Counted from the whole stretch's first letter, positions 34,884 to 53,900 are shown. The stretch: DNA of 62,682 nt, filler included, from Gemmatimonadota bacterium (GCA_003697105.1; 5 parts of 5 records of this genome joined end to end with filler, not necessarily neighbours in it); one strand, 5' to 3'. Notes: generated from the sequence alone by a model not told the origin. Translations and numbers: made by a program.

Positions 34884-36827
34884 TTATGAAAGGTACTCAT
34901 TTAACAATTGGTTCACCACAGCACCTGCAATTTTCCCCCGGCACTGTTTCATCACATTCCCCATAATGAAATGGTGTTTTGCCGCCGGACTGGTGTAGGG
35001 ACGTTCAACCGCAAGTTCCTGTTGAAGGAGGTCTTTCACGGTTGCTTCGTCAATTGAAGGCAACAGAAAGGCGTGAATTTGGGTTGCTAGATCAACAGTC
35101 CCATCACTTTTGAGGAATGTTTCTAATAACGTTTCCGCCGCTTCCACCAATGGCGGGTGGGTGTTCGCATGGGTAAACAGGGTCTGCCAGACGGCTTCGG
35201 TTAAACGGGAGGTATCCAGCCCTTCGCGGCGCCAGGCCACCGTTTTTTCAAACATCAAGCGGGCAATTCGCACTGGAGAGAGGCGGTTAAATGTCTTGAC
35301 CAAAGATTCAAATAATTCTGCCTGCATCGAAGAAGCAATTGGTACTAACAGATGTTCCGGCACTCCCCATTCGCGGTAGCGGTCTTCCCGCACCCACATT
35401 TGCTCCGGCACATCTTCAGCGAGGTTTTCAATGCGCTGGGGGGTAATCTCCAATGGCGGGAGGTCGGTATCGGGGTACATCCGCTCGGGACCCGGCAGAA
35501 TACGCTCAAAGCCGTTTGTACCATCGTCAAGGGCTTGGCGCGTTTCACTGGGGACAGGACAATCCAATGTTGCTTCGCGGGCACGGATAGCAATCTCATC
35601 AATGGCAGTTTTCACATCTTGAGAGCTACCCCAGACCAAGATTAATGCGTCATTAGCTTGTGCCCGAACCGCTTTGCGAATCCGGTTCCAGACCACATTG
35701 CCGATGGTGACTTCCGTACTTTCCGAGGTCAAGATGTTGGGCTGGCGGGTCAGGCAAGCAATCACCCGCACCCGGTCGGAAATTTCCTTGGAAAAGACCG
35801 TTCCGGTTTGGGTCGGGTAGCTCAGAATGCCCAAAAAGCCCTTTAAGTTGACACATGCCACCATCTCTTGCCGCTTATGAATTGCCCGTTGGATCGGTTC
35901 CCAGGTTGTGTGCATCAGGTAGGAGGTCACATCCACCCATTCATATTGAAAGGTGTCCGGGGTGATGCCGCGCCGGCGCAATTCATCCCGAATTTTCAGC
36001 AAGGAATATTGTCGTTGGGCTTCATGGTAGATCAAGCGAGGAATGAGTTTGATGCGGTGGACACCTTTGATTTCGATCCGGGTACCCCCAGCGATACTCA
36101 CATTAACATCTTCCCGTGCCGCACCTAAACCGGTGCGAACTCTGCCAGTACTGCGGGAAACATACCGGATAATATTGCACACATCCGCAACTTCCTGCGG
36201 AGTACGCATGACTGGCTCCGTAACAACTTCCGTGATCGGCATCCCCAACCGGTCGGTGATGTAAATACGCTCATGTCCGATGTCAGACACTTCCCGGCAG
36301 GAATCTTCCTCCAACCCCAACTGCACCAAACCGATCTTACGCCCTTTGTAAGGTAACCAGCCATCAATCCCGACAATTGTCGTCCGTTGAAAGCCGGTGG
36401 GAATACTCCCATCCAGATATTGCTTGCGGGCAATATGAATCTCGCTCACGAGCTTATAGTTCATCACCATCGCCAGTTGTAAGGCAATATCAAGCGCTTG
36501 TTGGTTGATTTCAAAGGGGGGTGTATCATCCATCTCATAGGTACAAACACTTTGATGATTGATGCGGTAGATAATTTCTTTGCGAGTTTTGAATTCCATC
36601 AGCGCCGTTCCATCGTACTCGCCCAATTCCGAAAGGGTTGGGCGCATGTGGCGCAAAATCTCGGCATCGTATTCTTTGGTGTTGTATAACCCGGCGGGAC
36701 AGCGGCAGAATAGTTTGCGGTCGGTTAATAGCTGTTGGTGTACTTCCAACCCGGAACGTAGCCCGATTTCGGCATAATCTTCCGGCGTCATCTCTTCAAA
36801 AGGCTTCAAAAGTCCAGATAACGTCAT
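34884..36827 (-). CDS. gatE: Glutamyl-tRNA(Gln) amidotransferase subunit E (archaeal-type)
   Basis: GLEVHQQL..KLFCRCP, RPTLSELGEYD, CTYEMDDTPP, DGSIPTGFQRT, LEEDSCR, DRLGMP..EVVT, REDVNVSI..G.RIEIKGV, a central insertion domain, SETR, RILPGPERMYPDTDLPP and C-terminal MGNVMKQCRGK. These match GatE rather than GatB. Confidence 0.88.
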   Translation of the reverse strand: MTLSGLLKPFEEMTPEDYAEIGLRSGLEVHQQLLTDRKLFCRCPAGLYNTKEYDAEILRHMRPTLSELGEYDGTALMEFKTRKEIIYRINHQSVCTYEMDDTPPFEINQQALDIALQLAMVMNYKLVSEIHIARKQYLDGSIPTGFQRTTIVGIDGWLPYKGRKIGLVQLGLEEDSCREVSDIGHERIYITDRLGMPITEVVTEPVMRTPQEVADVCNIIRYVSRSTGRVRTGLGAAREDVNVSIAGGTRIEIKGVHRIKLIPRLIYHEAQRQYSLLKIRDELRRRGITPDTFQYEWVDVTSYLMHTTWEPIQRAIHKRQEMVACVNLKGFLGILSYPTQTGTVFSKEISDRVRVIACLTRQPNILTSESTEVTIGNVVWNRIRKAVRAQANDALILVWGSSQDVKTAIDEIAIRAREATLDCPVPSETRQALDDGTNGFERILPGPERMYPDTDLPPLEITPQRIENLAEDVPEQMWVREDRYREWGVPEHLLVPIASSMQAELFESLVKTFNRLSPVRIARLMFEKTVAWRREGLDTSRLTEAVWQTLFTHANTHPPLVEAAETLLETFLKSDGTVDLATQIHAFLLPSIDEATVKDLLQQELAVERPYTSPAAKHHFIMGNVMKQCRGKIAGAVVNQLLNEYLS

Positions 36828-36908
36828 AGCGTCAATCCTCAGTTTCTAAGGGATGAAATAAAAGAGATCAAATGAATAGGGTATATATACGCTCTATTGC
36901 GAGATCAC

Positions 36909-37679
36909 TCAATGAATTTTTTCAGTCACCGAAGGATGCGAAAAGAATTGTGAAAGTTGGTCTTTGATCTGGCGTTCCATCTCATGAAAATAGCGATCAT
37001 GAAAGGAATAAACCGTCACTTCAAACTCCACCACATCCGCCGTTTGTCGGACGGACTTGAGACGTGGCTCCCGTTTTAAGGATGCCGCCGGAAAGTTCAG
37101 GATAATCTCCCGTAACCAACTCAAAAATTCGGGATTCACCTGAGACGCCGGTACTTGCAGTTGGAACACATATGTCTTTTCCGTCTCGATGGGGCTTGTT
37201 TTTTTGATAACCCCTTGGGAAATAGTGCTATAGGGGATTTTCACCCGCTCCCCATCGTGGGTTTCGATTTCGAGGATGCGAAATCCCAACGTCCGAATAT
37301 ACCCCTGATAGGTATCCCATTCAAGCCAATCACCTACTTGATACACATCCTCGGATTTTAAGATGATCCCAGCGGCAATATCCCGGATAGCAAACCAGAC
37401 CGAGCCAATCCCCACAGCAACCATGACCCCCAACAGCAGATACGCCAATTGCGGGCTTTCCCGAAAAAGAGATTTGAGCATCTGAAAACTAAAAATAAGC
37501 CAAACCAGCATTTCGACGACGAGAAACCCTTGTCCCAACCGCAACCGGTACGGTTTTTTGAGGTCTGCCCGGTGGAGAACGGTTTGCAAAAGCCGGAAAC
37601 TGATAAACAAAATCACGCCCAGCAGCAGAAATTCGACCAATAGAAATTCCGATATGTTGAAATGCCATGACGGATTCAT
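36909..37679 (-). CDS. Small MscS-family mechanosensitive channel protein
   Basis: Three TM helices, then RDIAAGIIL...YQVGDWL...GYIRTLGFR...VKIPYS (MscS beta domain). Confidence 0.8.
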   Translation of the reverse strand: MNPSWHFNISEFLLVEFLLLGVILFISFRLLQTVLHRADLKKPYRLRLGQGFLVVEMLVWLIFSFQMLKSLFRESPQLAYLLLGVMVAVGIGSVWFAIRDIAAGIILKSEDVYQVGDWLEWDTYQGYIRTLGFRILEIETHDGERVKIPYSTISQGVIKKTSPIETEKTYVFQLQVPASQVNPEFLSWLREIILNFPAASLKREPRLKSVRQTADVVEFEVTVYSFHDRYFHEMERQIKDQLSQFFSHPSVTEKIH

Positions 37680-40600
37680 AGGACTTCCATCTCCTTTAAT
37701 TTGCGCACCAGATACGGATGGAGAAACGGATTAATTTCTAAAATATGATACGTATTTTCCGTGACAATCCCCATCCGTTTGAGGGTTGTGAGGTCTTGCT
37801 TCCAACGTTCGGGGGGACGGCGTAAAATACGAGCCAGCCGGGCACGTGTCAATTTTTTGTGCAAAATAAACTGAATCAGGATCAGAATCCAATCTGGTTC
37901 AAGCAAATTCAAGGGTTTTAGGTCTGGGGTCACCGGTTTACGGATAATCAAGGTTTCATTTTGGATCTCCTGAATATTGGCTATCCACGCTTGAAGCGCC
38001 ACACCCGGATTACCGCGGGAATATTTGAAATACTCCGTAAACAAGCGGGCTTGTTTCCATTCTGCCAAATGTTTCTCGTCGTGCCCATCCAATTGGAAAG
38101 TCAATCCGGTGGAACGGTGTCGCCGTAAAATTAAATCCTTCAATTGTTCCGCATCAAACGGGGGGCAAGAGATTACTTCCAGCATGAGATGGTCTAAGTT
38201 ACGTAACGCATTGATAAAATTGTAGCTATAATGATTCAAATTGAGGATAAAAAAGTATTTATCCCCATAATCCGTCATCAATTGTAAAATACGATTAACG
38301 ACAACCATGCCGCCGGCACTACGCTCCCACCACATATCCAAATCATTGAAAACAAAAACACTATGAGCCGGTAAGGTATTAAAAATATCGCTATAGGGCA
38401 ATTCGGACGCCACGGCATGTTGAACGGTTGTTTCAAACACGGCCAACTCAATTGACCCACCTTGTGGCGGGTCAATGCGATAAACCCGCCGCGTATCAAA
38501 ACATTGATGCGCAATGAAAAGCGAAAGTGCCGTTTTCCCGGAATACCGCTCCCCAATGATGGCTAAGCCTCCGGCAATACCGCTCCGAAAGCGGCGTACT
38601 GCCTGCTCTGCGCGGGCGATCTCAGCCGTAGCACCGATCCAAAACTCCGTACTAATCGTAGGTTTACCGATGAACAACTGTTTATAGTAAAAGGGCAATG
38701 CCGCCAGAATCCGTTTTGGTGGCGAAATGGTATCGACCAGCGCCAACATGCTTTCCACCTTCCCCCCGGCGGTTTCAAGGGGTGAAGTACCCCTTGTGCG
38801 GGATAAGTTGCGGCTCTGATGGTACCACAATTTCACCAGTACCTCCCGTCCAAAACGATACAACTGCTCCAACTGTTCCTGAAATTTGGAGGGCACCGCT
38901 TGGTCCACTTGATGCTGCATATACTGCCCCCAAACACCGGTGGAATGGGTGATAAAGTACAAATTAATCTTTTCAAAGGTCTGTTTTAGATGGCGTTGGG
39001 TGGCTTCATTCAGGATGTTCAAGATTTTTTCGATTTGCTCTCGTTCGCTTTGGATAATCCGTATCCCATCGGTGATTTTTTGGACGGTCGCCTCGTAGAC
39101 GGTCTCCAGATCAATCTCTAAATCGCTGAGATGGAGCGAGACCATGCGGAGTACATCACTGGTGGTGCCTAAGGCTTTGCTCAGTTTGAGCGGCAATTCC
39201 GCCATCACGGCTTGTAAAGGGCGCACAAATTCAGTCGCAATCAGATAATCCACCAGCCGCCGGAGGGATATTGTCAACACCTCAATGCGATCAAACTGGC
39301 GGTTTTCAATCATGTTGAGGGATTCCCCACTCATCACCTCAACCGTTTCCGGCAGTTCACCGGTAACCTCTTGAATTTCAGCGACAAGTTTGTCCATTGC
39401 CTCTTGGATATCAAAATCAACTCGTAGTTCTGGCATAACCGGCAGGGTATAGTCTGTTTTTTCCTGAAGATGGGTGCGCAGTTGCTCCAAGTCCGCCGTT
39501 AATTCTTGGAAGTTTTCACTGATATTTTTCTGCACACTCTGATTCAACTCGGACATCATTTTTTGCACCAGCATCCGCATCCGGCTCTGCAAAGAGGCTA
39601 ACACAAGGTCAGTCAACAGAACATTCAGTACCAAATACTGATTTTTCAACCATAGACTTGGGACATTCAAAATTTGATCCCGTAATGCTTGTGCAGACTT
39701 CGGAACTCTGCGCTGGCGCCGGATAAATTGGTTGACATCGATCCGGTCGGCATCCTGAATCAGCCGTTGCAGGATGTGCCGGCTCTCTCGTAGCAAGGTA
39801 TGGCGGCAAGTATTAAATTTCTCCTGATGACTTGCCGTGGTCTGCGCCGTAAGGGTCTTCAATTTTTCGCGTTCGGCGGCGATAACTTCCGGCGAAAACT
39901 CATCTGTTTGGAGGTGCCGGTCTAAAACGGATAAACTGGACTTTGCCTGTTCTAACAATCGCTGCACCTGATACAGATTTTGGTAGCTATCCACCCCAAA
40001 TTCTTGCAATATCTGGTAAAAAAGGTGGCGTCCTTTGGTTTCTACATAAAAAATTTTAAGGTCACGTAACCGTACATCCTGCGTGATCACTTTTGCGGGA
40101 TTTAGACGTGCTTTCTGCCACTTAAAAAGCTTCAGGCGAAGTGAATCTTCCGGCTGGATGGCAAACCGCTCGAGTTCATAGCCAACATTCAAGGTTTCTG
40201 GGGTGCGGTATGCCAGCTCGGTCATTTGTGAAAAAATCCACGTGATCCCCGCCTCCGCCATCTCCTTTTGGTCGGGCAAGTAATCTGTTTTAAACTCTGT
40301 GAGAATCCGGCGAGCTTGAAACAAGAAATTATTCCGAATTTTGGGGATCACCTTCTGTTGCCGTAAACGCTCCGTGGTGGAAACCTGCTTTTCCAGATCG
40401 GTAAATGTGCGCTGGATCAACTGGTTGATGGTGCCAATCAACTGTTGGTCTGCTCCGTACATCTCTTTCAAGTAGCAGTCGATGTAATCCCGCAGGAGGT
40501 CTTCCAACTGTTGGGCTAACTGCCGTAATGCTCGTTCCAGCGCATCATTTTGGGGAAAGATCAGTGCCGGCAGTTGAAATTCGGTAATAGGGGTGGTGTC

Positions 40601-42823
40601 ATCCTTCAATTTGGGTTGTTTTCGCTCGATCCCGACAAAAATTTCCTCAAAATAGGACGAAGCCCGGATCAACAGCACCGTACCGATTTCATGAAGCAAC
40701 CAATTGGTATTTGCAATAAATTGATCTACATTTTGCGGATTGACATCGGGCATCCCGATGATAGTCAGATCAGAATGCACGGATTCCAGTTTAATCAAGT
40801 CCCGAAAACTGCGCTTTTCAATGGCATTGTTGATCACTTTTACTTCGGCGGGGATGCGATATTCTTCCAATACTCGCCCCATATTTTTGATGATTCGGGG
40901 AGTAAGGGAACTGTCCTCATTCACAATCATGACCCGGATGAGCGCGTCGCGCCATTCATCCGAAACGCGCATAAATTTGACTAACATCAAAGATAAGCTG
41001 ATATTATTACCGGAACCCCGCCACCAAATATCAATTTGCTGGCGTTTGCCATATCCAAACCGGTCATCATAATCAAGTAGTAAGAGATTATAATCCAGCT
41101 CGGTCATGGTGTGGAGCAAGTCCACAAAGCGTGCCGGATTACGGCTGTTGCGCACCCACCCCATCAGCACGGTATTGGGTTCAATTCCGGAAAATCCGTA
41201 GCTCCGCACAATCATATCAATACCGTCATAGATGTTGCGGCAGGTTTGGCGGCGCATAAAAATGCCGGTAAATTCATCCGGGTCGGTCTTCAACGCTTGG
41301 TTGGATTTGGAAAAGAGGACTTTCGTGGTCGTATCTTCAATGAGATCAAAATTGGAGAGAACACCCCGATTTTGTACCAACCATTTACCGAATTGCAACA
41401 AATGCGGACGTTTATCCGTGCCCCCACTAAATAGGATCACGTTGGGCTGCCAGTTTCGTTTGTGAAGGTCACTTTGGTTGAGTTTGAACAGCCCAGAGCG
41501 AACCACCGTAAACCAGACCCCTGCCCAGACATCCCCGGCATCTGTACCGAGTTCCTTGCGCTTGAGATAGAAAAAGATGCCGATCATGATCAGGGAGGAG
41601 GCAATCATTGCCACCACATCCAATAAAATCATAAACAGAAAGCAGACAACCGCACCGACAACGCTTACCCATGTGGGAATCTTAAATTCGGGACGGAAAT
41701 CAGGACTTGCCCAACTTTCAATGGCATACGTCAGGTTGAGGAAACCGTAGGTGGTCATGTAAAACATGGAGACAATGCGGGCGATCAGGTCTAATTCCCC
41801 GCTCCAGATAGCAATCTCGGCAATAATGGCAGTAAAAATGAGGGCATTTCGCGGTTCGTTACCTTCACCAAACCCGATTCCGAAAAGTTTTGGTGTCACT
41901 CGATCCATTGAGAGGGCTTGTAAAATACGTGGTGCTCCCAAAATGCCCCCCATAGCAGAAGAGATGGTCGCCGCCCAAATACCACCCAATACCAGCGGTG
42001 ACCACCACGCAATTTGCTTAAGAATGTTGTAATCCGTGCGAAGAACCTCGCCATCCACAGTTAGACCTAGAAAAATCGCCAAACTAATATAGATCACAAG
42101 TCCGGTTCCTACTGCCGCCATAGTGCCGACCGGAATCGATTTGTTAGGGTCTTTCAAATCTCCTGACATGGCAATACCCGCTGTGAAGCCCGTTACCGCT
42201 GGAAAGAATATCCCAAAAACCTCCGCAAAGGAGCGGGATTCTGCCGGCGCAAACAAATTCACGTGGGTGGGAACAAAATCATGGGAACCCAAAAAGATGG
42301 AAACGAGGGAGAGCGCAATCAACCCCAATACTAAAAATTGCGATTTTAAGGCAAGAGACGTGCTGATAAATGCGAGTGTCGTAACAACAAGCAACGTTAA
42401 AGAACCGGTGAGCCGCAAATCCGCTTTGGTCGTACCTAACGTGATGCCAAAAAATGAATCCAGTAGCGGTGAAAACGCCTCATTGAAACTTTCGGCAAAA
42501 CCGACAATATACAGCGCAATACTAACCGCCGTTCCGGCATAAAGGGCAATACCCAATGCGCCACCAATGGAGAGTCCCAAACTGCGTGAAATGATATAAT
42601 AGACACCTCCAGCTTTGACCCGCTTGTCTGTCGCAATGGAAGACACACTCAATCCAGTGGAGACCGAGATAATGTGCGCAATCAAAATAATCCCAATCGC
42701 TCCGATAATCCCGGCTTGTCCAACGACCCACCCGAGACGCAGGTACATAATCACGCCAAGGATCGTCAGAATCGATGGAGTAAATACCCCCGCAAATGTT
42801 CCGAATTTGTAACCGTTTGCCAT
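37676..42823 (-). CDS. Cation-chloride cotransporter (SLC12/CCC-like) fused to a long helical region, a P-loop NTPase and a winged-helix-like end
   Basis: FGTFAGVFTPSILTILGVIMYLRLGWVVG, GGVYYIISRSLG, FFPAVTG...SGDLKDP, SPDFRP.F, NWQP, IDIWW; C-terminal IIGERYSGKT (Walker A) and VFVFNDLD (Walker B-like). Confidence 0.88.
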   Translation of the reverse strand: MANGYKFGTFAGVFTPSILTILGVIMYLRLGWVVGQAGIIGAIGIILIAHIISVSTGLSVSSIATDKRVKAGGVYYIISRSLGLSIGGALGIALYAGTAVSIALYIVGFAESFNEAFSPLLDSFFGITLGTTKADLRLTGSLTLLVVTTLAFISTSLALKSQFLVLGLIALSLVSIFLGSHDFVPTHVNLFAPAESRSFAEVFGIFFPAVTGFTAGIAMSGDLKDPNKSIPVGTMAAVGTGLVIYISLAIFLGLTVDGEVLRTDYNILKQIAWWSPLVLGGIWAATISSAMGGILGAPRILQALSMDRVTPKLFGIGFGEGNEPRNALIFTAIIAEIAIWSGELDLIARIVSMFYMTTYGFLNLTYAIESWASPDFRPEFKIPTWVSVVGAVVCFLFMILLDVVAMIASSLIMIGIFFYLKRKELGTDAGDVWAGVWFTVVRSGLFKLNQSDLHKRNWQPNVILFSGGTDKRPHLLQFGKWLVQNRGVLSNFDLIEDTTTKVLFSKSNQALKTDPDEFTGIFMRRQTCRNIYDGIDMIVRSYGFSGIEPNTVLMGWVRNSRNPARFVDLLHTMTELDYNLLLLDYDDRFGYGKRQQIDIWWRGSGNNISLSLMLVKFMRVSDEWRDALIRVMIVNEDSSLTPRIIKNMGRVLEEYRIPAEVKVINNAIEKRSFRDLIKLESVHSDLTIIGMPDVNPQNVDQFIANTNWLLHEIGTVLLIRASSYFEEIFVGIERKQPKLKDDTTPITEFQLPALIFPQNDALERALRQLAQQLEDLLRDYIDCYLKEMYGADQQLIGTINQLIQRTFTDLEKQVSTTERLRQQKVIPKIRNNFLFQARRILTEFKTDYLPDQKEMAEAGITWIFSQMTELAYRTPETLNVGYELERFAIQPEDSLRLKLFKWQKARLNPAKVITQDVRLRDLKIFYVETKGRHLFYQILQEFGVDSYQNLYQVQRLLEQAKSSLSVLDRHLQTDEFSPEVIAAEREKLKTLTAQTTASHQEKFNTCRHTLLRESRHILQRLIQDADRIDVNQFIRRQRRVPKSAQALRDQILNVPSLWLKNQYLVLNVLLTDLVLASLQSRMRMLVQKMMSELNQSVQKNISENFQELTADLEQLRTHLQEKTDYTLPVMPELRVDFDIQEAMDKLVAEIQEVTGELPETVEVMSGESLNMIENRQFDRIEVLTISLRRLVDYLIATEFVRPLQAVMAELPLKLSKALGTTSDVLRMVSLHLSDLEIDLETVYEATVQKITDGIRIIQSEREQIEKILNILNEATQRHLKQTFEKINLYFITHSTGVWGQYMQHQVDQAVPSKFQEQLEQLYRFGREVLVKLWYHQSRNLSRTRGTSPLETAGGKVESMLALVDTISPPKRILAALPFYYKQLFIGKPTISTEFWIGATAEIARAEQAVRRFRSGIAGGLAIIGERYSGKTALSLFIAHQCFDTRRVYRIDPPQGGSIELAVFETTVQHAVASELPYSDIFNTLPAHSVFVFNDLDMWWERSAGGMVVVNRILQLMTDYGDKYFFILNLNHYSYNFINALRNLDHLMLEVISCPPFDAEQLKDLILRRHRSTGLTFQLDGHDEKHLAEWKQARLFTEYFKYSRGNPGVALQAWIANIQEIQNETLIIRKPVTPDLKPLNLLEPDWILILIQFILHKKLTRARLARILRRPPERWKQDLTTLKRMGIVTENTYHILEINPFLHPYLVRKLKEMEVL

Positions 42824-42824
42824 G

Positions 42825-42938
42825 TGAGTTTATGAGTTTGATGAGTTTTATGAGTTTGGGAGTTTATGAGTTTATGAGTTTATGAGTTTATGAGTTTATG
42901 AGTTTGAGAGTTTGACGAGTTTTATGAGTTTGGGAGTT
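42825..42938. repeat. Simple tandem repeat, ~14 copies of an 8-9-nt unit (consensus TGAGTTTA), abutting the CCC start codon
   Basis: Read directly; central run of four perfect TGAGTTTA copies. Confidence 0.92.
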
Positions 42939-43016
42939 GGTAAGTTTTGGAAGTTCGTCACTCATCATTACCCATCGCCCATTGGTCAGTGCTCCCATTC
43001 TTCATTCATCCTTGCT

Positions 43017-43337
43017 TCATTGTCCGAGGTCTCGTACTAAGATCACCGTATGTACCATCATCTGTGGATCGGCAATCGCGCGTGCCTCCCAGACCAAGCT
43101 ACTGTGCGAAACGACCCGCCAACCTTCTGCGGCATGTTGATTCAGCTCATCTTCCATGCGGTTATCCCGCCGGTCATCTCGCTTGCTCAGGGCGGCTTGC
43201 TTGAATTCCAACACTTTGTACTCAACCCTCGATTTTTCAGGTGAATTCCCCGCAGAGACCCGTTGTGATTGCAAAACAGCCCCCGCAAGGATTCCGATAA
43301 ACATTAATAGTAGTGTCCAGCGAAAGACAATCATCAT
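43017..43337 (-). CDS. DUF4177-like small protein with N-terminal hydrophobic segment
   Basis: GGAGG RBS before ATG 43337; EYKVLEF...EDELNQHAAEGWRVVS...VILVR. Confidence 0.72.
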   Translation of the reverse strand: MMIVFRWTLLLMFIGILAGAVLQSQRVSAGNSPEKSRVEYKVLEFKQAALSKRDDRRDNRMEDELNQHAAEGWRVVSHSSLVWEARAIADPQMMVHTVILVRDLGQ

Positions 43338-43383
43338 AACCTCCAAACATGATATAAAGTTGTCCCTAAACGGGAGAAATAAT

Positions 43384-44457
43384 TTAATGACTGGCGCCAA
43401 CGGCATCACCAATTGATTTCCAGCCATCCCGATCCATCAATTCAATCAAGCGCCGGCAGATGTTCCATACCGCACGGGGTCCTTCGTAGATAAAGCCCGT
43501 GTAAATCTGCACCAAAGATGCCCCTGCCAGAATCTTTTCGTAGGCATCATCACCCGTAAAAATACCGCCAACCCCGATAATTGGGATAGAACCATCACTC
43601 AGATGATAAAGTTGGTGGATAATTTCAGTTGATTTTCGGCGGAGGGGTTGCCCACTAAGCCCACCGGTTTGGGGTTCATCCAACCGGACGCCTTCGCGGG
43701 AGATCGTGGTATTGGTGGCAATGATCCCGTCAATGCGGTGTTCTTGCACGACGGTCACAATGTCTTCCAACTGTCCTTCAGTCACATCGGGGGCAATCTT
43801 CAAAAAGATGGGTTTGTGTTTATTATTTTTTGCTTGAAGTGCGGCTAAAATCTGGTGGAGTTCATCCTTGTTTTGCAGTTCCCGCAGATTGGGCGTATTG
43901 GGCGAACTGACATTTACCGTAAAATAATCCCCAAACGGGTACAATTTTTCAAAAGAAGCGCAATAATCTTCTACCGCCCTCTCTAACGGCACAACTTTTG
44001 TTTTTCCAATATTGATTCCCAACGGGATCGGACATGTCCTGTCCTGATAAAACTGCCGCAAGCGACGTGCAACCCGTGTTGCCCCATCATTATTGAAACC
44101 CATCCGATTGATAATAGCCCGATCCGCAGGATACCGGAACAGCCGGGGTTTAGGGTTACCCGGTTGTCCCTGAGCCGTCACCGTACCGACTTCAACATGT
44201 CCAAACCCGAAATGATGCCAGAACCGGATGCCATGCGCATTTTTATCAAACCCTGCCGCCAACCCGACCGGATTCGGGAAATGAAGCCCGGCGAACGACA
44301 CGTGCAAACGTGGATTTTGGTATGTCAAAAGTGGGTCTATGAGGTGTAACATGGGTGAAGCCGCACGTAGAAATGCCATTGTCCCCTCATGTACCACTTC
44401 TGGGTCAACCTCAAAAACAAGTGGACGAATAAAAGACTTATATAATAATAGCATCAT
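43384..44457 (-). CDS. pyrD: Quinone-dependent dihydroorotate dehydrogenase (class 2)
   Basis: NPVGLAAGFDKN, GNPKPRLFR, INRMGFNN, NVSSPNTPNLR, KIAPD, GGLSG, GVGGI. Confidence 0.96.
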   Translation of the reverse strand: MMLLLYKSFIRPLVFEVDPEVVHEGTMAFLRAASPMLHLIDPLLTYQNPRLHVSFAGLHFPNPVGLAAGFDKNAHGIRFWHHFGFGHVEVGTVTAQGQPGNPKPRLFRYPADRAIINRMGFNNDGATRVARRLRQFYQDRTCPIPLGINIGKTKVVPLERAVEDYCASFEKLYPFGDYFTVNVSSPNTPNLRELQNKDELHQILAALQAKNNKHKPIFLKIAPDVTEGQLEDIVTVVQEHRIDGIIATNTTISREGVRLDEPQTGGLSGQPLRRKSTEIIHQLYHLSDGSIPIIGVGGIFTGDDAYEKILAGASLVQIYTGFIYEGPRAVWNICRRLIELMDRDGWKSIGDAVGASH

Positions 44458-44740
44458 TAACTGACCCGATAATAGAGATATGTGCGAAAATTGGGTTTAT
44501 GTAGCAACAGTATAGGCTATTTGACGGTCAAAGATCAATTTTTTTTTATGAACCGTTGCGCCAAGTGGGTGTCATTTGGGGTATGAGCTGTGAAATGGCG
44601 TCTTCTCTGCGTCCATCCACCCCGTAAAGATCAAATTCCTTGACTTTTCAGGGGTTTGGGTTTACCAATTTGATGAATTCAATTGATCATAAATAATCAA
44701 TGTCATTCATCCCAATAACATCATATCAAGGAGGTTTACG

Positions 44741-47375: not shown

Positions 47376-47756
47376 TCAGTGGACTGTACCAAAAAGATGG
47401 TGGATTTCCTCTGCCATCTTTGTGGCAAAATAGGGCTTCTTCAGTAGCCGATCGATGCCCCATTTTTCTTTTTCCAGATCAAATCGAGACTGCGTAAATA
47501 CGGCAGTAAACAAAATAATTTTAACATTCGGGTTGATAAACTCTTTGATGCGTTTACTCGCCTCGAAACCATTCAGATATGGCATTAAGCCATCCATGAT
47601 AATCACCTTGATCTCCTGATCACGGGCGTACTCCACAGCTTGTTGGCCATCATTGGCAGTCACAACCTCAAAACCGTTTAACTCCAGACTGGTCTTCACC
47701 AATACCCGCATATCATTATCGTCATCGGCAACCAGCACCTTTCCTTTGAAGTTCAT
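47376..47756 (-). CDS. Stand-alone response regulator receiver (CheY-like)
   Basis: VLVADDD, IIMD (phospho-Asp), FTA, KP; ATG 47756 after GGGAG. Confidence 0.9.
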   Translation of the reverse strand: MNFKGKVLVADDDNDMRVLVKTSLELNGFEVVTANDGQQAVEYARDQEIKVIIMDGLMPYLNGFEASKRIKEFINPNVKIILFTAVFTQSRFDLEKEKWGIDRLLKKPYFATKMAEEIHHLFGTVH

Positions 47757-47880
47757 AAGGGACTCCCTTTGGTTAAAGCGTAAAAAAGGCGAAAACATAA
47801 CCCGCGCGAAACAACTGCAAAGCAGTGATTACAGTGTAACCGAATTTGCATACCGGATCAACTCTTTTTTTTACAACTCA

Positions 47881-47949: not shown

Positions 47950-50900
47950 TCATTTAATGGTGACTTTATAGCTCATCTGCCCGCTTTGCCCAGGAGTGAG
48001 TTCTAGCACATTAACATTCACGTTTGTAAAATCAATTGAAATGGAGTGTCCATCATATCCCCCACCGTCATTATCCCCATCATTGGCATCGGCGGTCAGA
48101 TAAATGGTACTGCCATCGGGACGGACAAACTCAATATCTTGCGAACCCGCGCCGGTATCAAAACCATCATACACGATGTTCACAAATTCTGAAATTGGGT
48201 CGGAGAGATCAATTTGGAGTAACGTATCCGCACCCGCATTGATATATGTCACCGTATAAAGCAGGGTATCTCCGGGTGACGCCACCGCTTTATCAACCGA
48301 TTTGACCAGTTGCATACTGCCGGTCTGCACATCGCCCACCGTTGTCATATCCGTGACACTGCTGGTAATTGCCGGATTATTGACTGACGTGGCAGTAAAG
48401 ACGGTAACATCCACAGCATTATCTGGTGTGCTGGTGGGTACAAACGCCGTCACAATAATATCCACGGTACCCCCTGCCGGCACATTACTCAATGAGGTAA
48501 TCGGGCTGCCGGTTGGGTTTCCACTGCCATCATCCAAGTAAATCGCCCACGCCCAGCCCCGTGAACTGGTAAAGCTTAGATTGACATCATCTGGCACACT
48601 TCCCAAGTTAGTCACATCATGGAAGTAATGGACTCGCGTCCCTTTCGGTACCGTCCGGCTTTGATCTGGCAGAATAATAATACCGCCCAGATGTACCGTA
48701 GCCGAGGCATCTGGTCCGGGGCTGTATTTGCGCCGGTAGGTACTGGTCGGATGGCTATACCACGTATCCACCTGTGCCGTATTGGTAAAGGCAGTACCTA
48801 AGGGGACGATGTCTAAAATATTACTATCCACAATCGCACTGTAATAAATCACCAAGCTATCACCGCCGGAATTGAGAGAGTCGCCGCTACCAAACGTCCA
48901 GGTAATTCGTCCGGTCGTAGAATCATAGACCGCCAAACTCGGGGTTGTCGCCACATTATTGATCTCGTATGCCGGAGCGGGTGAGCCAGTGAGCGGATTA
49001 TCCGAGCGCATCCCATTGGGCACGACATCTGTAATGATAATATCATACGCTTTCGCTGGGGAAGAGCCGCTATTGACCACCTCAATGCGGTATCGAACCG
49101 TATCACCGGCGGCAACGGTCTGTTTATCCGCCGTTTTGGTGATTGACATTCGAGGCTGAACGATAGTATGGCTGGTTGAGGCGTATCGCGACTCATAATC
49201 CGCCGCCAGATCATCACTAAAACCATGGTTCACGTAATTCCAATTTACACTGGCATTATTGGTCACCGTTCCATCCACGCTGGTATTGAGGAATAAATTT
49301 TGTCCGGTGGAATTTTTGCCGGTCACATCAACGGTATAATAAACATAGATGCTTTCCGGGCTAGTGTTCGCATTGGTGATCGGGTTAAACTCCCAGCGGG
49401 GGATAAACCGGCGGAATGAATTCAGCGAATCCGAGATGTCAAAGGAGGTCAACGCCGTATTGGGATCGGTAATGCTGGCATCACTTCGTCCATAGGATAC
49501 GGTTGTGGTATCCATGCGGGTGGCTTCCGGTAACGTATCGACCACCACCGGATAATAGATCACCGTTTGCCGGGGCAATTCGACGGTCAGCGTATAGGAT
49601 TGCCGGTCGCCGATGCGCCAGGTAGTGCCGGTTGGTGTTTTGGTAATGGTCGCGCCTTCAATCGCCACCACACCGGCGGAATCTGGACCCACATCCGCAT
49701 AAGCAGGGGTCGAATCGGTGTCGCGTTCGAGTGGTAGATTGCCCGGCAACGTACTGTAATCGATCACATCCACCCGGTTCGTGATCAGTTTGGAAGATTC
49801 CATAATCTCGGAATTCAGAGTCGCCGTATATTCCAGTAAAACGGTTTCGGCGGTATCTACCCGGGCCGTCGCATTACTGGCATTGGTGATCAACGTGATA
49901 ATCCATTCTCCGGTCGCCGCCGTGTAAGATCGACTGTAATCCACACCGTCAGTCAGAGCGCGTCCACCCGAGGTGAACGTGGTAATCGTCGGTTCGGTAC
50001 CGTTCATTTCCGCCGGGATGGTATCCCGAATTACCACATCATAGGCGGCAGAATTACCGGTATTTTGAAATGTGACGGTGTAATTGACCGAACTCACTCC
50101 CGGGCGCACAATCGGATTACCATTTCCGTCCGTTCCGAGGTTGGGTGCAACCGGCGGGACATCCAAGTTCTTGACCAGATTGGAGATCGTTGGTTCGATG
50201 ATAGTTGCTTGTACCGGATTGGATTGAATCTGGGTGACCGATGCTGGATTGCCATTGATGGTATTCCAGCGGAAACCTGCCCGGTTGGTCAACACACTAT
50301 CTCGTGCCACATCCGGCGAACCTCCAAAATATTGTTGATCCACGTTCGTGCGCATCGTGATGCGATAGGGATTGACCGTCGCATTCCCCGGCAAACTTCC
50401 TAATGAGAGGGCAATGGTATCTCCCAAACCGGTATAGAGCGTATCAATGGAGCCGCTGTTATTCTGGAATCGCAGGTCAACCAGCGAGACACCATCCGGC
50501 AAGGTATCCAGAAAGACGGATTGGTAAGCCGTCGTCTGATTTGGTACATCAAATTCAATGATATAATAGAGCGTATCCCCGATGGTCGTTACAACATCCG
50601 TGCTATCGGTAGGGGAGGGGTCCACAAAAACGGAATATTGATTTTTGATTTGTGTCGGTAATCCATCGGTAAACGCTAAAGCAGTATCATTTTGGGTCGA
50701 TTGGTACACCCGCTCAAAAGGGGTTGAACCGGGCAGACTGGAAAAGGTATCCACGACCGCATGGTTGACCATGTAGGCTGAGGTACCAATACTGGCATCG
50801 ACTTGCAGTTGGTAATTAATCGTCACCGTTTCCCCCGGATAAACGGGTGTGTTTGCGGTACTATCAAATTCGATGGTAAAGACTGTGCCATCGTACAAAA

Positions 50901-53900
50901 GGGTGGTATCTCCCGCACCTAAAGTCCGTGCGCCGACCGTGATTGAAATCGATAAGGTGGTGGGGTCGGTATCGCGCATACCCTGCGGCACGGTATCCCG
51001 AAAGACGGTTTCATAGGCAACTCCATCCCCGACATTATCAAACGTAACGGTATAATTGACAATCTGCGTTCCCGAGACCGGATTACCGGTGGTCTGTGTC
51101 TTGACAAAATTCGCAAATTCCGGCTCATTGACATACGTGGTGACGGTATTCGTAACGGAACTTAACTGCGTCCCCACATCATCATTGATGTAATTCCACG
51201 TGAAATAGCCGGTATTACTGAACGAATCGGTACTATCGACCGGGCTTCCCCCATTGAACGTGGAATCCACACGAGCGGTAATATCAATCGTTACCGTTAA
51301 CCCTGCGGCGCCACCGAAAAGAGAATCAAACTCGGCACCGCTCACTTGGACCAGAGTTGTCCCATTCCCTTGCGGTGTCTCCGTAATCGTCCCATGCGTG
51401 GTACTGGTGTTTAGAACCGTTAGCCCATCTGGGATGGTATCGCGGAAGACGACATCGTAAGCAGTAGCACTATCCGGCACAATAAACTGAATCTGGTAAT
51501 AAATTTCCTCACCGATCTGCACCGAATCCCCATCCGCCGGCGCATGATACTGGGTCGTCACCGATTTAGACGAGGTGGGACCTCGCGTATAAAACGTATT
51601 ACAATCTGGACCCACTTGGGTATAGACGCGCTCTGGGGTGACATAGGCACTGTCCGCGGGACCGGTGAAGTTCCCATACTGGGCCGTATCTTTAATGGAG
51701 GTATAACTGAGCACAGCGGCACAGTTCTGCATGGTAACACCTGCCCCAATGGAGGAATCAACCGTCGCGGTATAGGTTATCGTAATGACTTCATTGGGGT
51801 CCACCACGGCAGTAGCGGTGGTATCAAACGCAATGGTGAGTACCCCTGTACCGCTGTTAAAACTGGCGTTAAAATCCGTTCCGGAGGTAAATGCACCATC
51901 GGTACTACTGGTAATTGCTACCGTACCAGAAGGATCGGTTAAGCGCATTCCGATAGGCAACGTATCCACCACCACTACATCATAGGCAGGGGAATCAAAG
52001 TTATAGCCGGGGTAATTATTATCAAAAGTCAACGTAAAGGGGATATTTTCGTTTGCTTGTACCGTATCATCGGGGGTCGTGTGGGTCTTCGTAAAACTGA
52101 TAATCTGCGGTTCGATGACATAATAACGGATATTAGGACCGTAATCTTCATCTTGGGTCGTCGGATTCCCATTTTCATCGTACGTATCCCAATTAAAATC
52201 ATTCACACCGCGATTTTGGGTCCGGACTCGCAGTTCATCGCTAACGTCCACGACCCCGTTGAGTGGACCCGCCTCATTTTGCCCACTGCCACCCCCGTGA
52301 TAATTGCTCATGACACTCGCAATAACGGTAATGGTGACCAGTGAGTCGCTCGCTCCGGCCCGGATTCGATCCCATTGGACTTCAAAACCACGATACGTCC
52401 CTGTCCGAATATAATTGAAAATATTGGGGTTATCTCCACCATTAATGGTAATTTCCTGAATTTCCCAGCCATCATCCAATTGAATCAACGCATTTGGATT
52501 ATAGGCTTGCGTATATGCCGGCACGGTAATTTCGTAGGTAATGGTGGTATATTCCCCAATGGTAATATGGGGGCGATTTGATCCACCGTCATATGTGGTG
52601 GACTGCTGTCGCGTAAAGCTACGGGAAAGCGTGACATTGGGGGTCTGAAAACTAATGGATTGCAACAAGTTCGGGTCATACGTGCGTTCATTTGCACTGG
52701 TATCTGGCATGGAGGTATAACCGGTTATATCTGCATAATTGGAGAGGGTCACCAAGGTTTGACCAGCGGTTGCGATTCCATTTGCCGAGATGGTATCATC
52801 AACATCCACCGTGTACTGAATAAAGAGCGTATCCAAGGGTGCCAGACCCCCTTGGGTGCTATCTCCTTGCGTTTTGAAGGTTAAAATACCTGTTGCCGCC
52901 GTGTAGGTGGTATCAATAACCCCTAACACGACGAGATCACGGGTGCTACCGGCATCTGGACGGATTTCCACCGTATTGATCGTGGGTGTTGCATTTCGCA
53001 TCCCATACGGCAGAGTATCCGCAATGGTAATTTGATATGCCGGAGACGTTCCACTGTTGACCGCCCGCAACGTGAACACAATTGTGGAATCCCCATTGAT
53101 CGTGCCCGAAATGTTACTGGTTTTGCTGAATGTACTGACGTTTGGCTCAACAATATAATAATCAATGGTACGGGACATCGTCGTCGGGAAAGCGTTATGA
53201 TTGTAATTGACCCCGTAAATGGAAAAATCGGTATAACCGGTATTCGGTAGTTGGGTGGGAATGGTGTAATCATTTCCCGGCACATCCTGCGGTCGCGTGG
53301 CATATTGGATAACAACTTCCCCTTGACCTCCTGGACTCACAAAATCCGCCACAGTCCAGACCAATGACGGCGCCGTTGAATCGGATAACGTGACGGTCGA
53401 ACCGGTGGTATTGGTAATAATACTGAAACTGCCCGGCACATACTCCATACCGGTCGAAATGGAATCACCAATGGTCACTCCGGTATAATTCCCCGCGGCA
53501 AACAGATTGAGCGAATCTCGATGGAAAATGGGATTCCCGATGGTTCCATAGGCGGTGCTGTCTGAGGTCACGGCGCCGGGCTGCACGGTGGACCAGTGAA
53601 CTTTGTTAAATTCCACTCCGGCAACCGTTACAATCGCCGGGGTCGTATCATAGCTATGGCGGCAGATACGGGTACCCGCGCCATCCACACACCAGCCTTC
53701 CACTACACCCAATACATTAAGGGAATCGGGCCCAACAATCGCGCTAAAAACCGCCGATTTGGTATCATTTCCGCCAGCCGCTTCAATGGTATCAATATCG
53801 GTATAATCCCAATAAAGAACGCTATCACCGATAATCGTTGCCACACCTAATGAATCTACCCCGCCTCCTTGTCCACTTTCTTGCACGATACTACTAAATC

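What the first reader, a model, noticed from the sequence alone, without database searches (positions are those of the whole stretch)
36909..42823. Cation-chloride cotransporter fused to a P-loop ATPase/wHTH and coupled to an MscS channel
Seen: residues ~1-730 form a complete SLC12/CCC-like transporter (TM domain plus cytosolic domain). They are followed in one frame by ~650 aa of helical/coiled-coil sequence, a Walker A (GERYSGKT), a Walker B-like VFVFNDLD and a winged-helix-like end (LTRARLARIL...DLTTLKRMGIV). The stop overlaps (ATGA) the start of a 3-TM MscS gene. Known: ordinary prokaryotic CCCs end after the cytosolic domain, and both CCCs and MscS act in volume/osmotic control. Inference: a dedicated osmoregulatory machine in which a nucleotide-switch module links salt cotransport to a mechanosensitive channel.
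Basis: partly seen in the sequence, partly recalled or inferred. Interest (0 to 1): 0.75.

Follow-up and report, generated by a model that had tools for sequence, protein, structure and literature searches.

The report
Salt transporter-ATPase fusion, MscS-partnered
One bacterial gene joins an animal-type sodium/potassium-chloride salt transporter to a long helical arm and an ATP-binding switch, and it travels with its own small pressure-release channel gene, which points to an undescribed way for bacteria to control salt and water balance.

Summary
Window 37676-42823(-) is one intact 1715-aa ORF. It reads SLC12/CCC transporter (res 1-~730), two long helical bundles (731-1329), then an AAA+ ATPase with lid and winged helix (1330-1715). 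Its stop overlaps (ATGA) the start of a 256-aa MscS-like gene (36909-37679).

It belongs to a large unnamed family. The extension finds 456 representative clusters at E<=1e-30, and 352 stretches in species genomes.
- Fusion: 57 of 80 fetched loci carry it as one ORF.
- Linkage: 68 of 80 have the MscS-like gene directly downstream, 34 with the same 4-nt overlap.
- Unlinked cases: 5 of 5 such genomes searched keep the cognate MscS elsewhere.
- Co-occurrence: in 121 Cytophagales genomes the cognate MscS is in exactly the 7 that carry the CCC-type fusion.

The same module also occurs fused to CPA2 antiporters (4 of 4 loci followed by MscS) and free-standing (3 of 3). A controlled complex prediction supports ATPase-WH binding to the MscS cytoplasmic domain (0.76; best control 0.01).

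Best reading: an ion/turgor-homeostasis unit coupling an importer to a release valve through a nucleotide switch. Function is inferred. My searches found no paper on it. This scan had already noted the family on other DNA.

The parts
41444..42823 (-). CCC/SLC12 transmembrane (APC-fold) domain, residues 1-~460
   Evidence: PF00324 at 13-460, E 1.3e-44. Aligns to KCC4, KCC1-3 and NKCC1 chains. The TM8 segment matches NKCC1 best, 1.1e-12 against 1e-8 for the KCCs.
40634..41443 (-). CCC cytosolic C-terminal domain, residues ~461-730
   Evidence: PF03522 at 472-559, 27.9 bits. TIGR00930 stretch to residue 673. KCC4 alignment to residue 666. Family conservation up to F725.
38837..40633 (-). Two tandem long helical bundles with small beta inserts, residues 731-1329
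   Evidence: AF2 model m022e7867287f: pLDDT 88.5, pTM 0.82, helices of 45-78 residues. Foldseek found no PDB match at E<=1e-3. VIA matched only generic four-helix bundles, best Z 14.8 to a designed bundle and chemoreceptor-type sensor domains at Z 9-10.
37679..38836 (-). AAA+ ATPase core, helical lid and C-terminal winged helix, residues 1330-1715
   Evidence: AF2 model m2cf8e7a03f3c: pLDDT 91.9, pTM 0.88. Foldseek matches RuvB at 8.7e-9, A. pernix ORC2 at 1.4e-8 and PABY2304 at 8.3e-8. VIA matches NSF-D2 at Z 14.9, Orc1/Cdc6 2qby_A at Z 14.8 and 1w5s_A at Z 14.6 spanning model residues 46-385.
38531..38554 (-). Walker A GERYSGKT, residues 1424-1431
   Evidence: Over 81 sequences: G1424 and G1429 81 of 81, K1430 73 Lys and 8 Arg, T1431 63 Thr and 18 Ser.
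38318..38359 (-). Strand beta3 plus Walker B-like acids and the family motif: VFVFNDLDMWWERS, residues 1489-1502
   Evidence: D1494 81 of 81. Position 1496 is Glu in 80 of 81, with Asp only in the window. W1498, W1499 and E1500 are 81 of 81. R1501 and S1502 lie in the predicted MscS interface.
37679..37918 (-). Winged-helix domain, residues ~1636-1715
   Evidence: Model helices at 307-311, 314-326, 331-338 and 342-354, strands at 358-360 and 366-368, and a helix at 373-382, in piece numbering. Aligned with the WH of Orc/Cdc6 chains. H1655 is 81 of 81. Residues 314-325, 337-339 and 383-386 of the piece lie in the predicted interface.
37676..37679 (-). ATGA stop/start overlap between the fusion gene and the MscS-like gene
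   Evidence: The same 4-nt overlap occurs in 34 of 80 related loci, and a 1-nt overlap in 6.
36909..37679 (-). Small (256 aa) MscS-like channel gene of a subfamily cognate to the fusion
   Evidence: PF00924 at 98-157, E 3.1e-12. Adjacent in 68 of 80 loci. Found only in fusion-carrying genomes in a 121-genome sample. Predicted to bind the ATPase-WH through residues 166-167, 191-204 and 226-237.
42825..42931 (.). 8-nt tandem repeat (12.9 copies) abutting the start codon. Membership in the unit is uncertain.
   Evidence: TRF score 143; sequence. The contigs of runs X1 and X2 break here.

Best explanation
This is a two-gene ion/turgor-homeostasis unit. The large protein is a Na+/K+-Cl- type (SLC12) cotransporter. 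Its cytosolic domain continues into two rigid helical bundles and ends in an ORC/Cdc6-like AAA+ nucleotide-binding module with a winged helix. The small downstream gene encodes a dedicated MscS-type mechanosensitive channel subunit.

I propose that the AAA+-WH module docks on the outside of the channel's cytoplasmic domain. An ion importer and a pressure-release valve would then sit in one complex. The nucleotide state of the AAA+ site, next to the invariant WWE(R/K)S loop that lies in the predicted interface, would set their activities reciprocally: importer off when the valve is engaged, and the reverse.

The AAA+-WH/MscS pair is the invariant core. The transporter (CCC here, CPA2 antiporter elsewhere, none in a third group) is an exchangeable input or output.

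Shown here: the architecture, the folds, conservation of the fusion, of the motifs and of the gene pair, and co-occurrence.
Predicted with controls: the contact.
Inferred: direction of regulation, ATP hydrolysis, the ions carried and the physiological role.
For: Architecture and folds:
- One ORF with CCC, helical bundles and AAA+-WH.
- AAA+ fold with lid and WH: Foldseek E 8.7e-9 to 1e-6 to RuvB, ORC and Cdc6 chains, PABY2304 and SSO1545; VIA Z 14-15.

The family is large, and the fusion is the rule:
- 51 of 55 homologue clusters carry PF00324.
- 104 of the 150 best representatives are 1600 aa or longer.
- 57 of 80 loci have one ORF.

The nucleotide motifs are conserved.

The MscS partnership:
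- 68 of 80 loci adjacent, 40 of them with overlapping stop and start.
- No third conserved neighbour.
- 5 of 5 genomes with an unlinked fusion keep a cognate MscS, E 3e-38 to 2e-76.
- In 121 Cytophagales genomes the cognate MscS (E<=1e-25) is in 7, exactly the 7 with a CCC-type fusion.

The module is portable and always comes with an MscS:
- Free-standing 1033-1056-aa paralogues are each followed by a 347-394-aa MscS, 3 of 3.
- CPA2 fusions in Plesiocystis and three Enhygromyxa strains are followed by an MscS, 4 of 4.

Complex prediction of ATPase-WH with MscS:
- Score 0.76 (runs 0.77, 0.76, 0.76); best of 3 controls 0.01.
- That mark was reached by 58 of 80 solved complexes and 2 of 110 mismatched pairs.
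- The runs agree in at least 61% of contacts, and the partner's pLDDT is at least 70.
- My own alignments were used, so those calibration counts hold only roughly.

Transporter side: the TM8 segment matches NKCC1 best, and a Ser-Ser pair (S288, S289, invariant in 43 of 43 sequences) aligns with the NKCC1 Ser-Ser. That this pair belongs to the Na+ site is recalled, not tested.
Against: - No experiment or expression data were available.
- The predicted interface is not more conserved than the rest of the domain: mean 0.46 against 0.51.
- The prediction used one MscS chain, not a heptamer. Whether that surface is exposed in the oligomer was not tested.
- CCCs are dimers, MscS is a heptamer and AAA+ proteins are usually hexamers (recalled). 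The stoichiometry of a complex is therefore unclear.
- 8 of 81 family members, and the free-standing paralogue L009:14974-18144, have Arg at the Walker A lysine. The window alone has Asp at the otherwise Glu position 1496. Hydrolysis may be weak or dispensable.
- I saw no conserved arginine-finger candidate, and did not test for one formally.
- 7 of 80 loci lack an adjacent MscS.
- The pore-lining helix of the partner MscS is poorly conserved, so it may sense tension rather than conduct.
- The helical region has no informative structural relative.
Confidence: 0.5

Rival explanations
1. The parts and the complex are the same, but information flows the other way. The MscS-like subunit is mainly a membrane-tension sensor. 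Through the AAA+-WH and the helical arm it switches the fused transporter on or off. It need not act as a release valve at all.
For: The pore-lining TM3a of the partner subfamily is poorly conserved, while the cytoplasmic part and the TM3b motif (W95, D100, G104) are conserved. The partner is minimal, at 230-290 aa. The predicted contact is with its cytoplasmic domain. The transporter differs between subfamilies while the sensor-like pair is constant.
Against: Free-standing paralogues have no fused transporter to control. The beta-domain is a normal MscS match. Nothing here separates sensing from conducting.
Confidence: 0.2
2. The AAA+-WH module is an assembly or quality-control factor. It acts as a dedicated chaperone or tether that builds, positions or disassembles the MscS-like oligomer next to the transporter, and does not regulate activity.
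For: The AAA+ fold is typical of remodelling and loading machines such as RFC, NSF, ORC and TnsC. Translational coupling fits stoichiometric co-assembly. Binding is predicted.
Against: I saw no pore-loop or ring-forming features. Arg replaces the Walker A Lys in 8 of 81 members and in the one free-standing paralogue checked, which argues against a working motor. MscS channels assemble unaided in known cases (recalled).
Confidence: 0.1
3. It is an anti-phage or abortive-infection device. A STAND/AAA+-like sensor would open membrane effectors (channel or transporter) to collapse the cell on infection.
For: The module gives weak sub-threshold AAA_16, NACHT and nSTAND hits in relatives. Structural matches to NLR and Avs NTPases reach Z 12-13. 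The two-gene unit sits in variable neighbourhoods.
Against: PADLOC gave no hit beyond E 0.005-0.007 noise for the extension, the MscS or a paralogue pair. The neighbours here are housekeeping genes: pyrD, a gatB-like gene and an acyl-CoA dehydrogenase. The transporter keeps residues invariant across the whole CCC fold. The fusion partners are always cation transporters. ORC/Cdc6 and RuvB matches outrank NLR and Avs.
Confidence: 0.05
4. The winged helix binds DNA. The protein would be a membrane-tethered, transporter-coupled transcription regulator or chromosome anchor, and the MscS gene is simply co-regulated.
For: The ORC/Cdc6-type AAA+-WH architecture binds DNA in its known relatives (for the likeness; the function is recalled).
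Against: In the complex prediction the WH (piece residues 314-325, 337-339, 383-386) is used for the MscS contact. The strict MscS co-occurrence is not explained by this reading. I looked for no conserved operator-like site.
Confidence: 0.05

Closest known systems
Eukaryotic SLC12 cation-chloride cotransporters (NKCC1, NCC, KCC1-4) and the ~730-aa prokaryotic CCCs
   Same: Residues 1-~730 are a full CCC, with transmembrane domain and cytosolic C-terminal domain. They match KCC4 at E 8.9e-88 and NKCC1 at about 1e-74. TM8 is most like NKCC1. Volume control by salt uptake is their known role (recalled).
   Different: No described CCC continues into about 985 more residues of helical bundles plus an AAA+-WH module. 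Animal CCCs are controlled by WNK-SPAK/OSR1 phosphorylation (recalled), which is absent here. Here the gene is paired with a channel gene.
Orc1/Cdc6 initiators, RuvB, and the archaeal 'ATPase_2' proteins PABY2304 (2qen) and SSO1545 (2fna)
   Same: AAA+ core, helical lid and C-terminal winged helix in the same order. Foldseek E 1e-8 to 1e-6. VIA Z 12.5-14.8, with the Orc/Cdc6 and 2qen chains spanning the whole model.
   Different: No significant sequence similarity: phmmer against PDB gave nothing better than E 0.1, and Pfam AAA_16 scored only 10.4 bits here. The acidic motif is hhhh-x-D-L-E followed by the invariant WWE. The module is tethered to a membrane transporter. Its predicted partner is a channel, not DNA.
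MscS (YggB)-family mechanosensitive channels, including members with added regulatory domains
   Same: The partner has the MscS beta-domain (PF00924), three N-terminal hydrophobic helices and a C-terminal alpha/beta domain.
   Different: It is a distinct small subfamily, scoring 15-21 bits against NCBIfam MscS equivalogs whose cut-offs are 400-500. In the sample searched it occurs only with the AAA+-WH module. Known MscS regulation is by tension, or by domains fused in cis (recalled), not by a separate AAA+ protein.
KefC/KefB (CPA2 with a C-terminal KTN/RCK domain and KefF/KefG) and TrkH-TrkA / KtrAB
   Same: They work alike in principle: a cation transporter governed by a cytoplasmic nucleotide-binding module plus an ancillary subunit. 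A sister subfamily is actually fused to CPA2/Kef-type domains.
   Different: The regulatory module here is AAA+-WH with a helical arm, not an RCK/KTN Rossmann fold. The ancillary subunit is an MscS-type membrane protein.
STAND NTPases (AAA_16, NACHT, NB-ARC, Avs)
   Same: P-loop core, helical domain and winged helix. Weak AAA_16, NACHT and nSTAND hits in relatives. VIA Z 12-13 to NLR and Avs chains.
   Different: No C-terminal repeat or sensor domain follows the WH. The hits are below Pfam thresholds. ORC/Cdc6 and RuvB rank higher. The context is ion transport, not defence.

Membership tests
SLC12 / cation-chloride cotransporter (TC 2.A.30) | APC-fold 12-TM permease domain with significant similarity to SLC12 members | tested here: met
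   PF00324 at 153.2 bits against a cut-off of 24.6. KCC and NKCC chains at E 8.9e-88 to 1e-58.
SLC12 / cation-chloride cotransporter (TC 2.A.30) | SLC12-type cytosolic C-terminal domain | tested here: met
   PF03522 at 27.9 bits against a cut-off of 27, so only just met. The KCC4 alignment runs to residue 666. TIGR00930 scores 404 bits, below its subfamily cut-off of 953.
SLC12 / cation-chloride cotransporter (TC 2.A.30) | Ion-site residues (cation and chloride ligands in TM1, 3, 6, 8, 10) | tested here: inconclusive
   Aligned residues are conserved: Y75, P208, T211, G212, S288, S289 and Y359 are invariant in 43 of 43 sequences (alignments). Which residues ligate which ion is recalled from the literature, not tested.
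SLC12 / cation-chloride cotransporter (TC 2.A.30) | Coupled cation-chloride transport | not testable with these tools
   Needs flux assays.
AAA+ ATPases (ORC/Cdc6-like architecture) | alpha-beta-alpha P-loop core followed by a helical lid | tested here: met
   Model pLDDT 91.9. Foldseek probability 1.00 to RuvB, ORC, Cdc6, ClpB and RFC chains. VIA Z 12-15.
AAA+ ATPases (ORC/Cdc6-like architecture) | Walker A GxxxxGK[ST] and Walker B acidic residues | tested here: met
   GERYSGKT is present. K1430 is Lys in 73 of 81 and Arg in 8. D1494 is 81 of 81. Position 1496 is Glu in 80 of 81, Asp in the window. The spacing hhhh-x-D-L-E departs from the canonical hhhhDE.
AAA+ ATPases (ORC/Cdc6-like architecture) | Sensor 1, arginine finger, sensor 2; ring or spiral oligomer | tested here: inconclusive
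   Asn at the end of beta4 is present in 69-73 of 81 sequences. R1568 in the lid is invariant. I found no conserved arginine-finger candidate. Oligomerisation was not modelled.
AAA+ ATPases (ORC/Cdc6-like architecture) | C-terminal winged helix | tested here: met
   Secondary structure of model residues 307-382. Orc/Cdc6, 2qen and RuvB alignments span to residues 381-386.
AAA+ ATPases (ORC/Cdc6-like architecture) | Sequence-level membership of a curated family (AAA_16, AAA_22, ATPase_2, Cdc6) | tested here: not met
   The window protein scores AAA_16 E 0.91, 10.4 bits against 32.6. phmmer against PDB found nothing better than E 0.1. Of the relatives scanned, one passes AAA_16 (P0136, 38.1 bits against 32.6) and a few pass AAA_22 or AAA. 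I therefore file it as AAA+ by fold, and not as a member of the Orc/Cdc6 family.
MscS family | MscS beta-domain following the pore-lining helix | tested here: met
   PF00924 at 46.8 bits against a cut-off of 20.2, residues 98-157.
MscS family | Three TM helices, the third lining a heptameric pore; tension-gated conductance | not testable with these tools
   Three hydrophobic stretches are visible, but I ran no TM predictor or oligomer model. The TM3a sequence is poorly conserved. NCBIfam MscS equivalogs are not met, at 21.5 bits against 500.
STAND NTPases | NOD (P-loop, helical domain, WH) plus a C-terminal sensor or repeat domain; curated family hit | tested here: not met
   The protein ends at the WH. 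No STAND family passes its threshold. NLR and Avs matches at Z 12-13 rank below ORC/Cdc6.
Known anti-phage defence systems (PADLOC-DB 2.0) | Match to a defence-system protein model | tested here: not met
   Only E 0.0046 (Csn2) and E 0.0068 noise for 4 proteins.

The most novel reading that the evidence does not exclude
An ORC/Cdc6-like AAA+-winged-helix module is a previously unrecognised universal adaptor. It plugs dedicated MscS-type channels into secondary cation transporters (NKCC-like CCC, Kef-like CPA2), or works on the channel alone. The result would be an ATP-set 'importer plus valve' volume regulator, a bacterial counterpart by function (not by descent) of the WNK-SPAK control of animal NKCC and KCC. 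It would also be the first case of a mechanosensitive channel with an obligate AAA+ partner.
Probability: 0.35. Interest if true: 0.85.

Novelty: new variant of a known kind. Interest (0 to 1): 0.72.

Why it matters
CCCs are major drug targets and volume regulators in animals, yet their prokaryotic relatives are barely studied. How bacteria coordinate salt uptake with release through mechanosensitive channels is an open question.

This family offers a natural, genetically compact system in which importer, putative switch and valve are encoded together. It is found in hundreds of species across Calditrichia, Bacteroidota, Ignavibacteria, Myxococcota and others. Some carriers are cultured and are not known pathogens (the latter recalled): Plesiocystis pacifica SIR-1 and Enhygromyxa salina.

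It makes several ideas directly testable:
- that a mechanosensitive channel has a cytoplasmic ATPase partner;
- that a CCC C-terminal domain can be driven by a fused nucleotide module;
- that the same module has been re-used with different transporters.

Databases currently name these proteins only 'amino acid permease' or 'cation:proton antiporter', which hides more than half of each protein.

Tried and rejected
- No whole genome is held for the window.
- A genome-contig scan with the single extension protein found no relative. The alignment-based scan did.
- phmmer of the extension against PDB sequences gave nothing better than E 0.1.
- Pfam on the extension at E<=10 gave only noise, plus AAA_16 at E 0.91.
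- Helical region: Foldseek had no match at E<=1e-3. VIA gave only generic helical bundles, which the tool's own note says are common at Z below about 13 for helical models. The ESM Atlas gave no usable hit and holds no model. I therefore give this region no fold name.
- The ~1130-1180-aa 'short forms' (P0044, P0067, P0087, P0088, P0096) are not new N-terminal domains. They begin inside the CCC C-terminal domain, so they are probably gene-call fragments or splits. This is unresolved.
- PADLOC: no defence family.
- Rfam at E<=0.1 over 36500-44600: nothing.
- Promoter-like and terminator-like sites are no more frequent than in shuffles, 8 against 9.1 and 8 against 7.9. The operon boundaries are not defined.
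- No RNA holder is listed among the sequencing runs, so nothing can be said on expression.
- A pyrD homologue search to place the organism gave a best identity of 59% and no close named relative.
- Look-up of earlier findings by sequence found nothing. The look-up by words found eight notes.
- Literature: full-text searches returned no paper describing a CCC-AAA+ fusion or an MscS with an AAA+ partner. I read only the listings. For PMC12903740 and PMC3924187 I also read the single passages that hold the term; these were a reference-list entry and a family table. One search was rejected for a slash in a term. Subscription journals, TCDB and supplementary files were not searchable.
- The predicted interface residues are not more conserved than average, so I do not use conservation as support for the interface.

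Full report
**What is there**

The minus strand of the window carries an intact 1715-aa ORF (37676-42823). A 256-aa ORF (36909-37679) follows, and its ATG overlaps the TGA of the first as ATGA.

- Residues 13-460 match AA_permease (1.3e-44).
- Residues 472-559 match the SLC12 C-terminal domain (27.9 bits, cut-off 27).
- The first 730 residues match solved KCC and NKCC chains at 8.9e-88 to 1e-58, aligned up to residue 666.
- The small ORF matches the MscS beta-domain (3.1e-12). It shows three hydrophobic stretches ahead of that domain.
- The remaining 985 residues match no curated family and no solved chain by sequence.

**Is the long ORF real?**

Contigs of two runs, X1 and X2, cover 36700-42871 with no insertion or deletion. 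They come from one study and may be the source of this DNA, so they are not independent. Their only two differences inside the gene are synonymous third-position changes.

Comparison is more telling.
- A word-seeded search with residues 1300-1715 found 55 clusters. Of these, 51 carry the permease domain, nearly all at about 1650-1800 aa.
- An exhaustive HMMER search with the extension alone found 1891 representatives at E<=1e-3 and 456 at E<=1e-30. Of the best 150, 104 are 1600 aa or longer.
- A scan of one genome per species found 352 confirmed stretches of 355 pattern matches.
- The 80 best loci come from Calditrichia, Cytophagales, Bacteroidales, Flavobacteriales, Ignavibacteria, Rhodothermia, Latescibacterota and Myxococcota. 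They include the cultured Plesiocystis pacifica SIR-1 and Enhygromyxa salina.
- In 57 of the 80 the whole architecture is one ORF. Thirteen are cut by a contig end. Ten are in pieces, and nine of those ten still show CCC pieces in line, mostly in MAGs whose isolate names begin 'MFD'.

The window's own organism has no close named relative.

**The extension**

With a 54-row alignment, residues 1330-1715 fold with high confidence (pLDDT 91.9, pTM 0.88). The model is a P-loop alpha/beta core, a helical lid and a winged helix.
- Foldseek ranks RuvB, Aeropyrum ORC2, the archaeal ATPases PABY2304 and SSO1545, Orc/Cdc6 chains, ClpB-NBD2 and RFC at E 8.7e-9 to 1e-6.
- The Foldseek-independent aligner gives Z 14.9 for NSF-D2, Z 14.8 and 14.6 for Orc1/Cdc6 chains, and Z 13.9 for PABY2304 and TnsC. 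NLR and Avs NTPases score 12-13.
- These rows are close to each other, so the domain is AAA+ by fold. Only the Orc/Cdc6, 2qen/2fna and RuvB chains span core, lid and WH together.

Over 81 sequences:
- Walker A glycines are invariant.
- K1430 is Lys in 73 and Arg in 8.
- D1494 is invariant.
- Position 1496 is Glu in 80. The window alone has Asp.
- The following W1498-W1499-E1500 are invariant, as are R1568, H1569, W1613 and H1655.

Residues 731-1329 also fold confidently (pLDDT 88.5). They form two bundles of 45-78-residue helices with small beta inserts. The only structural matches are generic four-helix bundles, so I describe this region and do not name it.

**The MscS partner**

- An MscS-like ORF of about 230-290 aa lies directly downstream on the same strand in 68 of 80 loci. 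In 34 it has the same 4-nt overlap, and in 6 a 1-nt overlap.
- In 3 more loci it lies 1.3-2.5 kb downstream. In two of those, a separate roughly 740-aa CCC gene sits between.
- Seven loci have none, and two have too little DNA.
- No third gene family is conserved around the pair. The window's neighbours are pyrD, a DUF4177 gene, a gatB-like gene and an acyl-CoA dehydrogenase.
- In 5 of 5 genomes tested among the seven without an adjacent partner, a cognate MscS is present elsewhere, with scores as high as the linked ones (E 3e-38 to 2e-76).
- In an even sample of 121 Cytophagales genomes the ATPase module is in 9, of which 7 have the CCC-fused type at E<=1e-138. The cognate MscS at E<=1e-25 is in 7, and they are the same 7 genomes. 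Genome completeness was not reported for this sample.

**The module is portable**

One Calditrichia genome has, 3.8 kb from its CCC fusion, a 1056-aa protein without any transporter. Its last 400 residues are 24% identical to the window's ATPase-WH (3e-24). It is followed by a 394-aa MscS. Two more such free-standing genes, of 1033 and 1044 aa, are each followed by an MscS of 383 and 347 aa.

In Plesiocystis a Kef-type CPA2 antiporter domain (PF00999) takes the place of the CCC in front of a helical region and an AAA+-WH. A 290-aa MscS-like gene follows. This form has 29 clusters of about 1050-1450 aa, 23 of them with PF00999. It is followed by an MscS-like gene in three Enhygromyxa strains as well.

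The constant core is therefore 'helical region, AAA+-WH, then MscS'. The transporter is exchangeable.

**Do they touch?**

- Score 0.76 (runs 0.77, 0.76, 0.76). The best of three controls scored 0.01.
- That mark was reached by 58 of 80 solved complexes and 2 of 110 mismatched pairs.
- The runs agree in at least 61% of contacts, and the partner's pLDDT is at least 70.
- The tool warns that these counts hold only roughly with my own alignments, and that a pass supports binding but does not show it.
- I know of no solved MscS-AAA+ complex (recalled), so a pass from memory seems unlikely.

The interface joins:
- R1501 and S1502, just after the invariant WWE next to Walker B;
- the helix after sensor 1 (1532-1540);
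- the first WH helices (1643-1654, 1666-1668) and the C-terminus;
- MscS residues 166-167, 191-204 and 226-237, in its C-terminal cytoplasmic domain.

Against over-reading: these positions are not more conserved than the domain average (0.46 against 0.51). Only one MscS chain was modelled.

**How it most likely works**

The CCC part looks competent. Residues across the fold are invariant. Its TM8 resembles NKCC1 more than the KCCs and keeps a Ser-Ser pair aligned with that of NKCC1. That this pair contributes to the Na+ site is my recollection.

I therefore read the unit as an importer of Na+/K+ with Cl- tied physically to a tension-operated release channel. The AAA+ nucleotide site would act as the switch, and the helical bundles as the lever to the CCC C-terminal domain.

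The direction of control, hydrolysis itself, and the stoichiometry of a dimer-heptamer assembly are all open. Arg at the Walker A lysine in 8 of 81 members and in the free-standing paralogue L009:14974-18144, and Asp at 1496 in the window, bear on hydrolysis.

Rivals are a sensor-first reading, an assembly factor, a defence device (no PADLOC support) and DNA binding by the WH.

**Novelty**

Sources name these proteins 'amino acid permease', 'amino acid transporter/GTPase' or 'cation:proton antiporter'. Six full-text searches found no description. I read only listings and two passages, and supplementary files and subscription journals were out of reach.

This scan had already noted the same family on other DNA eight times. 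My results were obtained before I read those notes, and they agree.
- the controlled contact prediction and the residues in the predicted interface;
- the finding that the partner is kept when unlinked;
- the exact co-occurrence in a genome sample.

**Verdict**

It is a new variant of transporter regulation built from known folds, and worth bench work.

Noticed in passing
window 42825-42931: An 8-nt unit (TGAGTTTA on the + strand) is repeated 12.9 times and runs right up to the start codon of the fusion gene, leaving no obvious ribosome-binding site. The contigs of runs X1 and X2 break into many short pieces exactly here. This could be repeat-length variation affecting expression, or just an assembly limit.
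   Followed up: partly
window 38336-38338 (residue 1496): The window's protein is the only one of 81 family members with Asp instead of Glu at the second acidic position after strand beta3.
   Followed up: partly
L047:11183-13393 and L060:11109-13367: In two Bacteroidales or Bacteroidaceae MAGs an ordinary stand-alone CCC gene (736 and 752 aa) sits between the fusion gene and the MscS-like gene.
   Followed up: no
L009:13607-18144 (same place as L081); L091:5501-9678; L092:5003-9277: Transporter-less paralogues of the helical plus AAA+-WH protein (1033-1056 aa), each followed by a larger MscS (347-394 aa). The one checked, L009:14974-18144, has Arg in place of the Walker A Lys.
   Followed up: partly
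L090:4185-10775; L093-L095: Kef-type CPA2 antiporter fused to the same kind of module and followed by an MscS-like gene in Plesiocystis pacifica and three Enhygromyxa salina strains. These genomes also hold the CCC-type fusion.
   Followed up: partly
L096 and L097 (G008:C112, G006:C106): A second CPA2-like gene in Enhygromyxa lies in open frames of 1481-1530 aa and matches only the antiporter part (35% identity). Its long C-terminal part was not examined.
   Followed up: no
G011:C383, G012:C29, G014:C46 (L104-L106, L109-L111): Where the cognate MscS is unlinked from the fusion gene, it lies next to a second, more distant MscS-like gene (E about 1e-17).
   Followed up: no
window 47950-56904 (-): A 2984-aa ORF lies about 5 kb upstream, next to a response-regulator gene (47376-47798). 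It was not examined.
   Followed up: no
window 34884-36827 (-): The gatB-like ORF downstream is 647 aa. Its GatB_N match spans residues 26-466 for a 277-position profile, which implies a large insertion.
   Followed up: no
L030:6579-9941: In one low-coverage Flavobacteriales MAG only the extension (residues 765-1715 equivalent, 1120-aa ORF) was detected, although 6.5 kb of upstream DNA is present. L007, L008 and L039 of the same group have a longer ATPase match (1329 against about 1160 nt) and no adjacent MscS.
   Followed up: no
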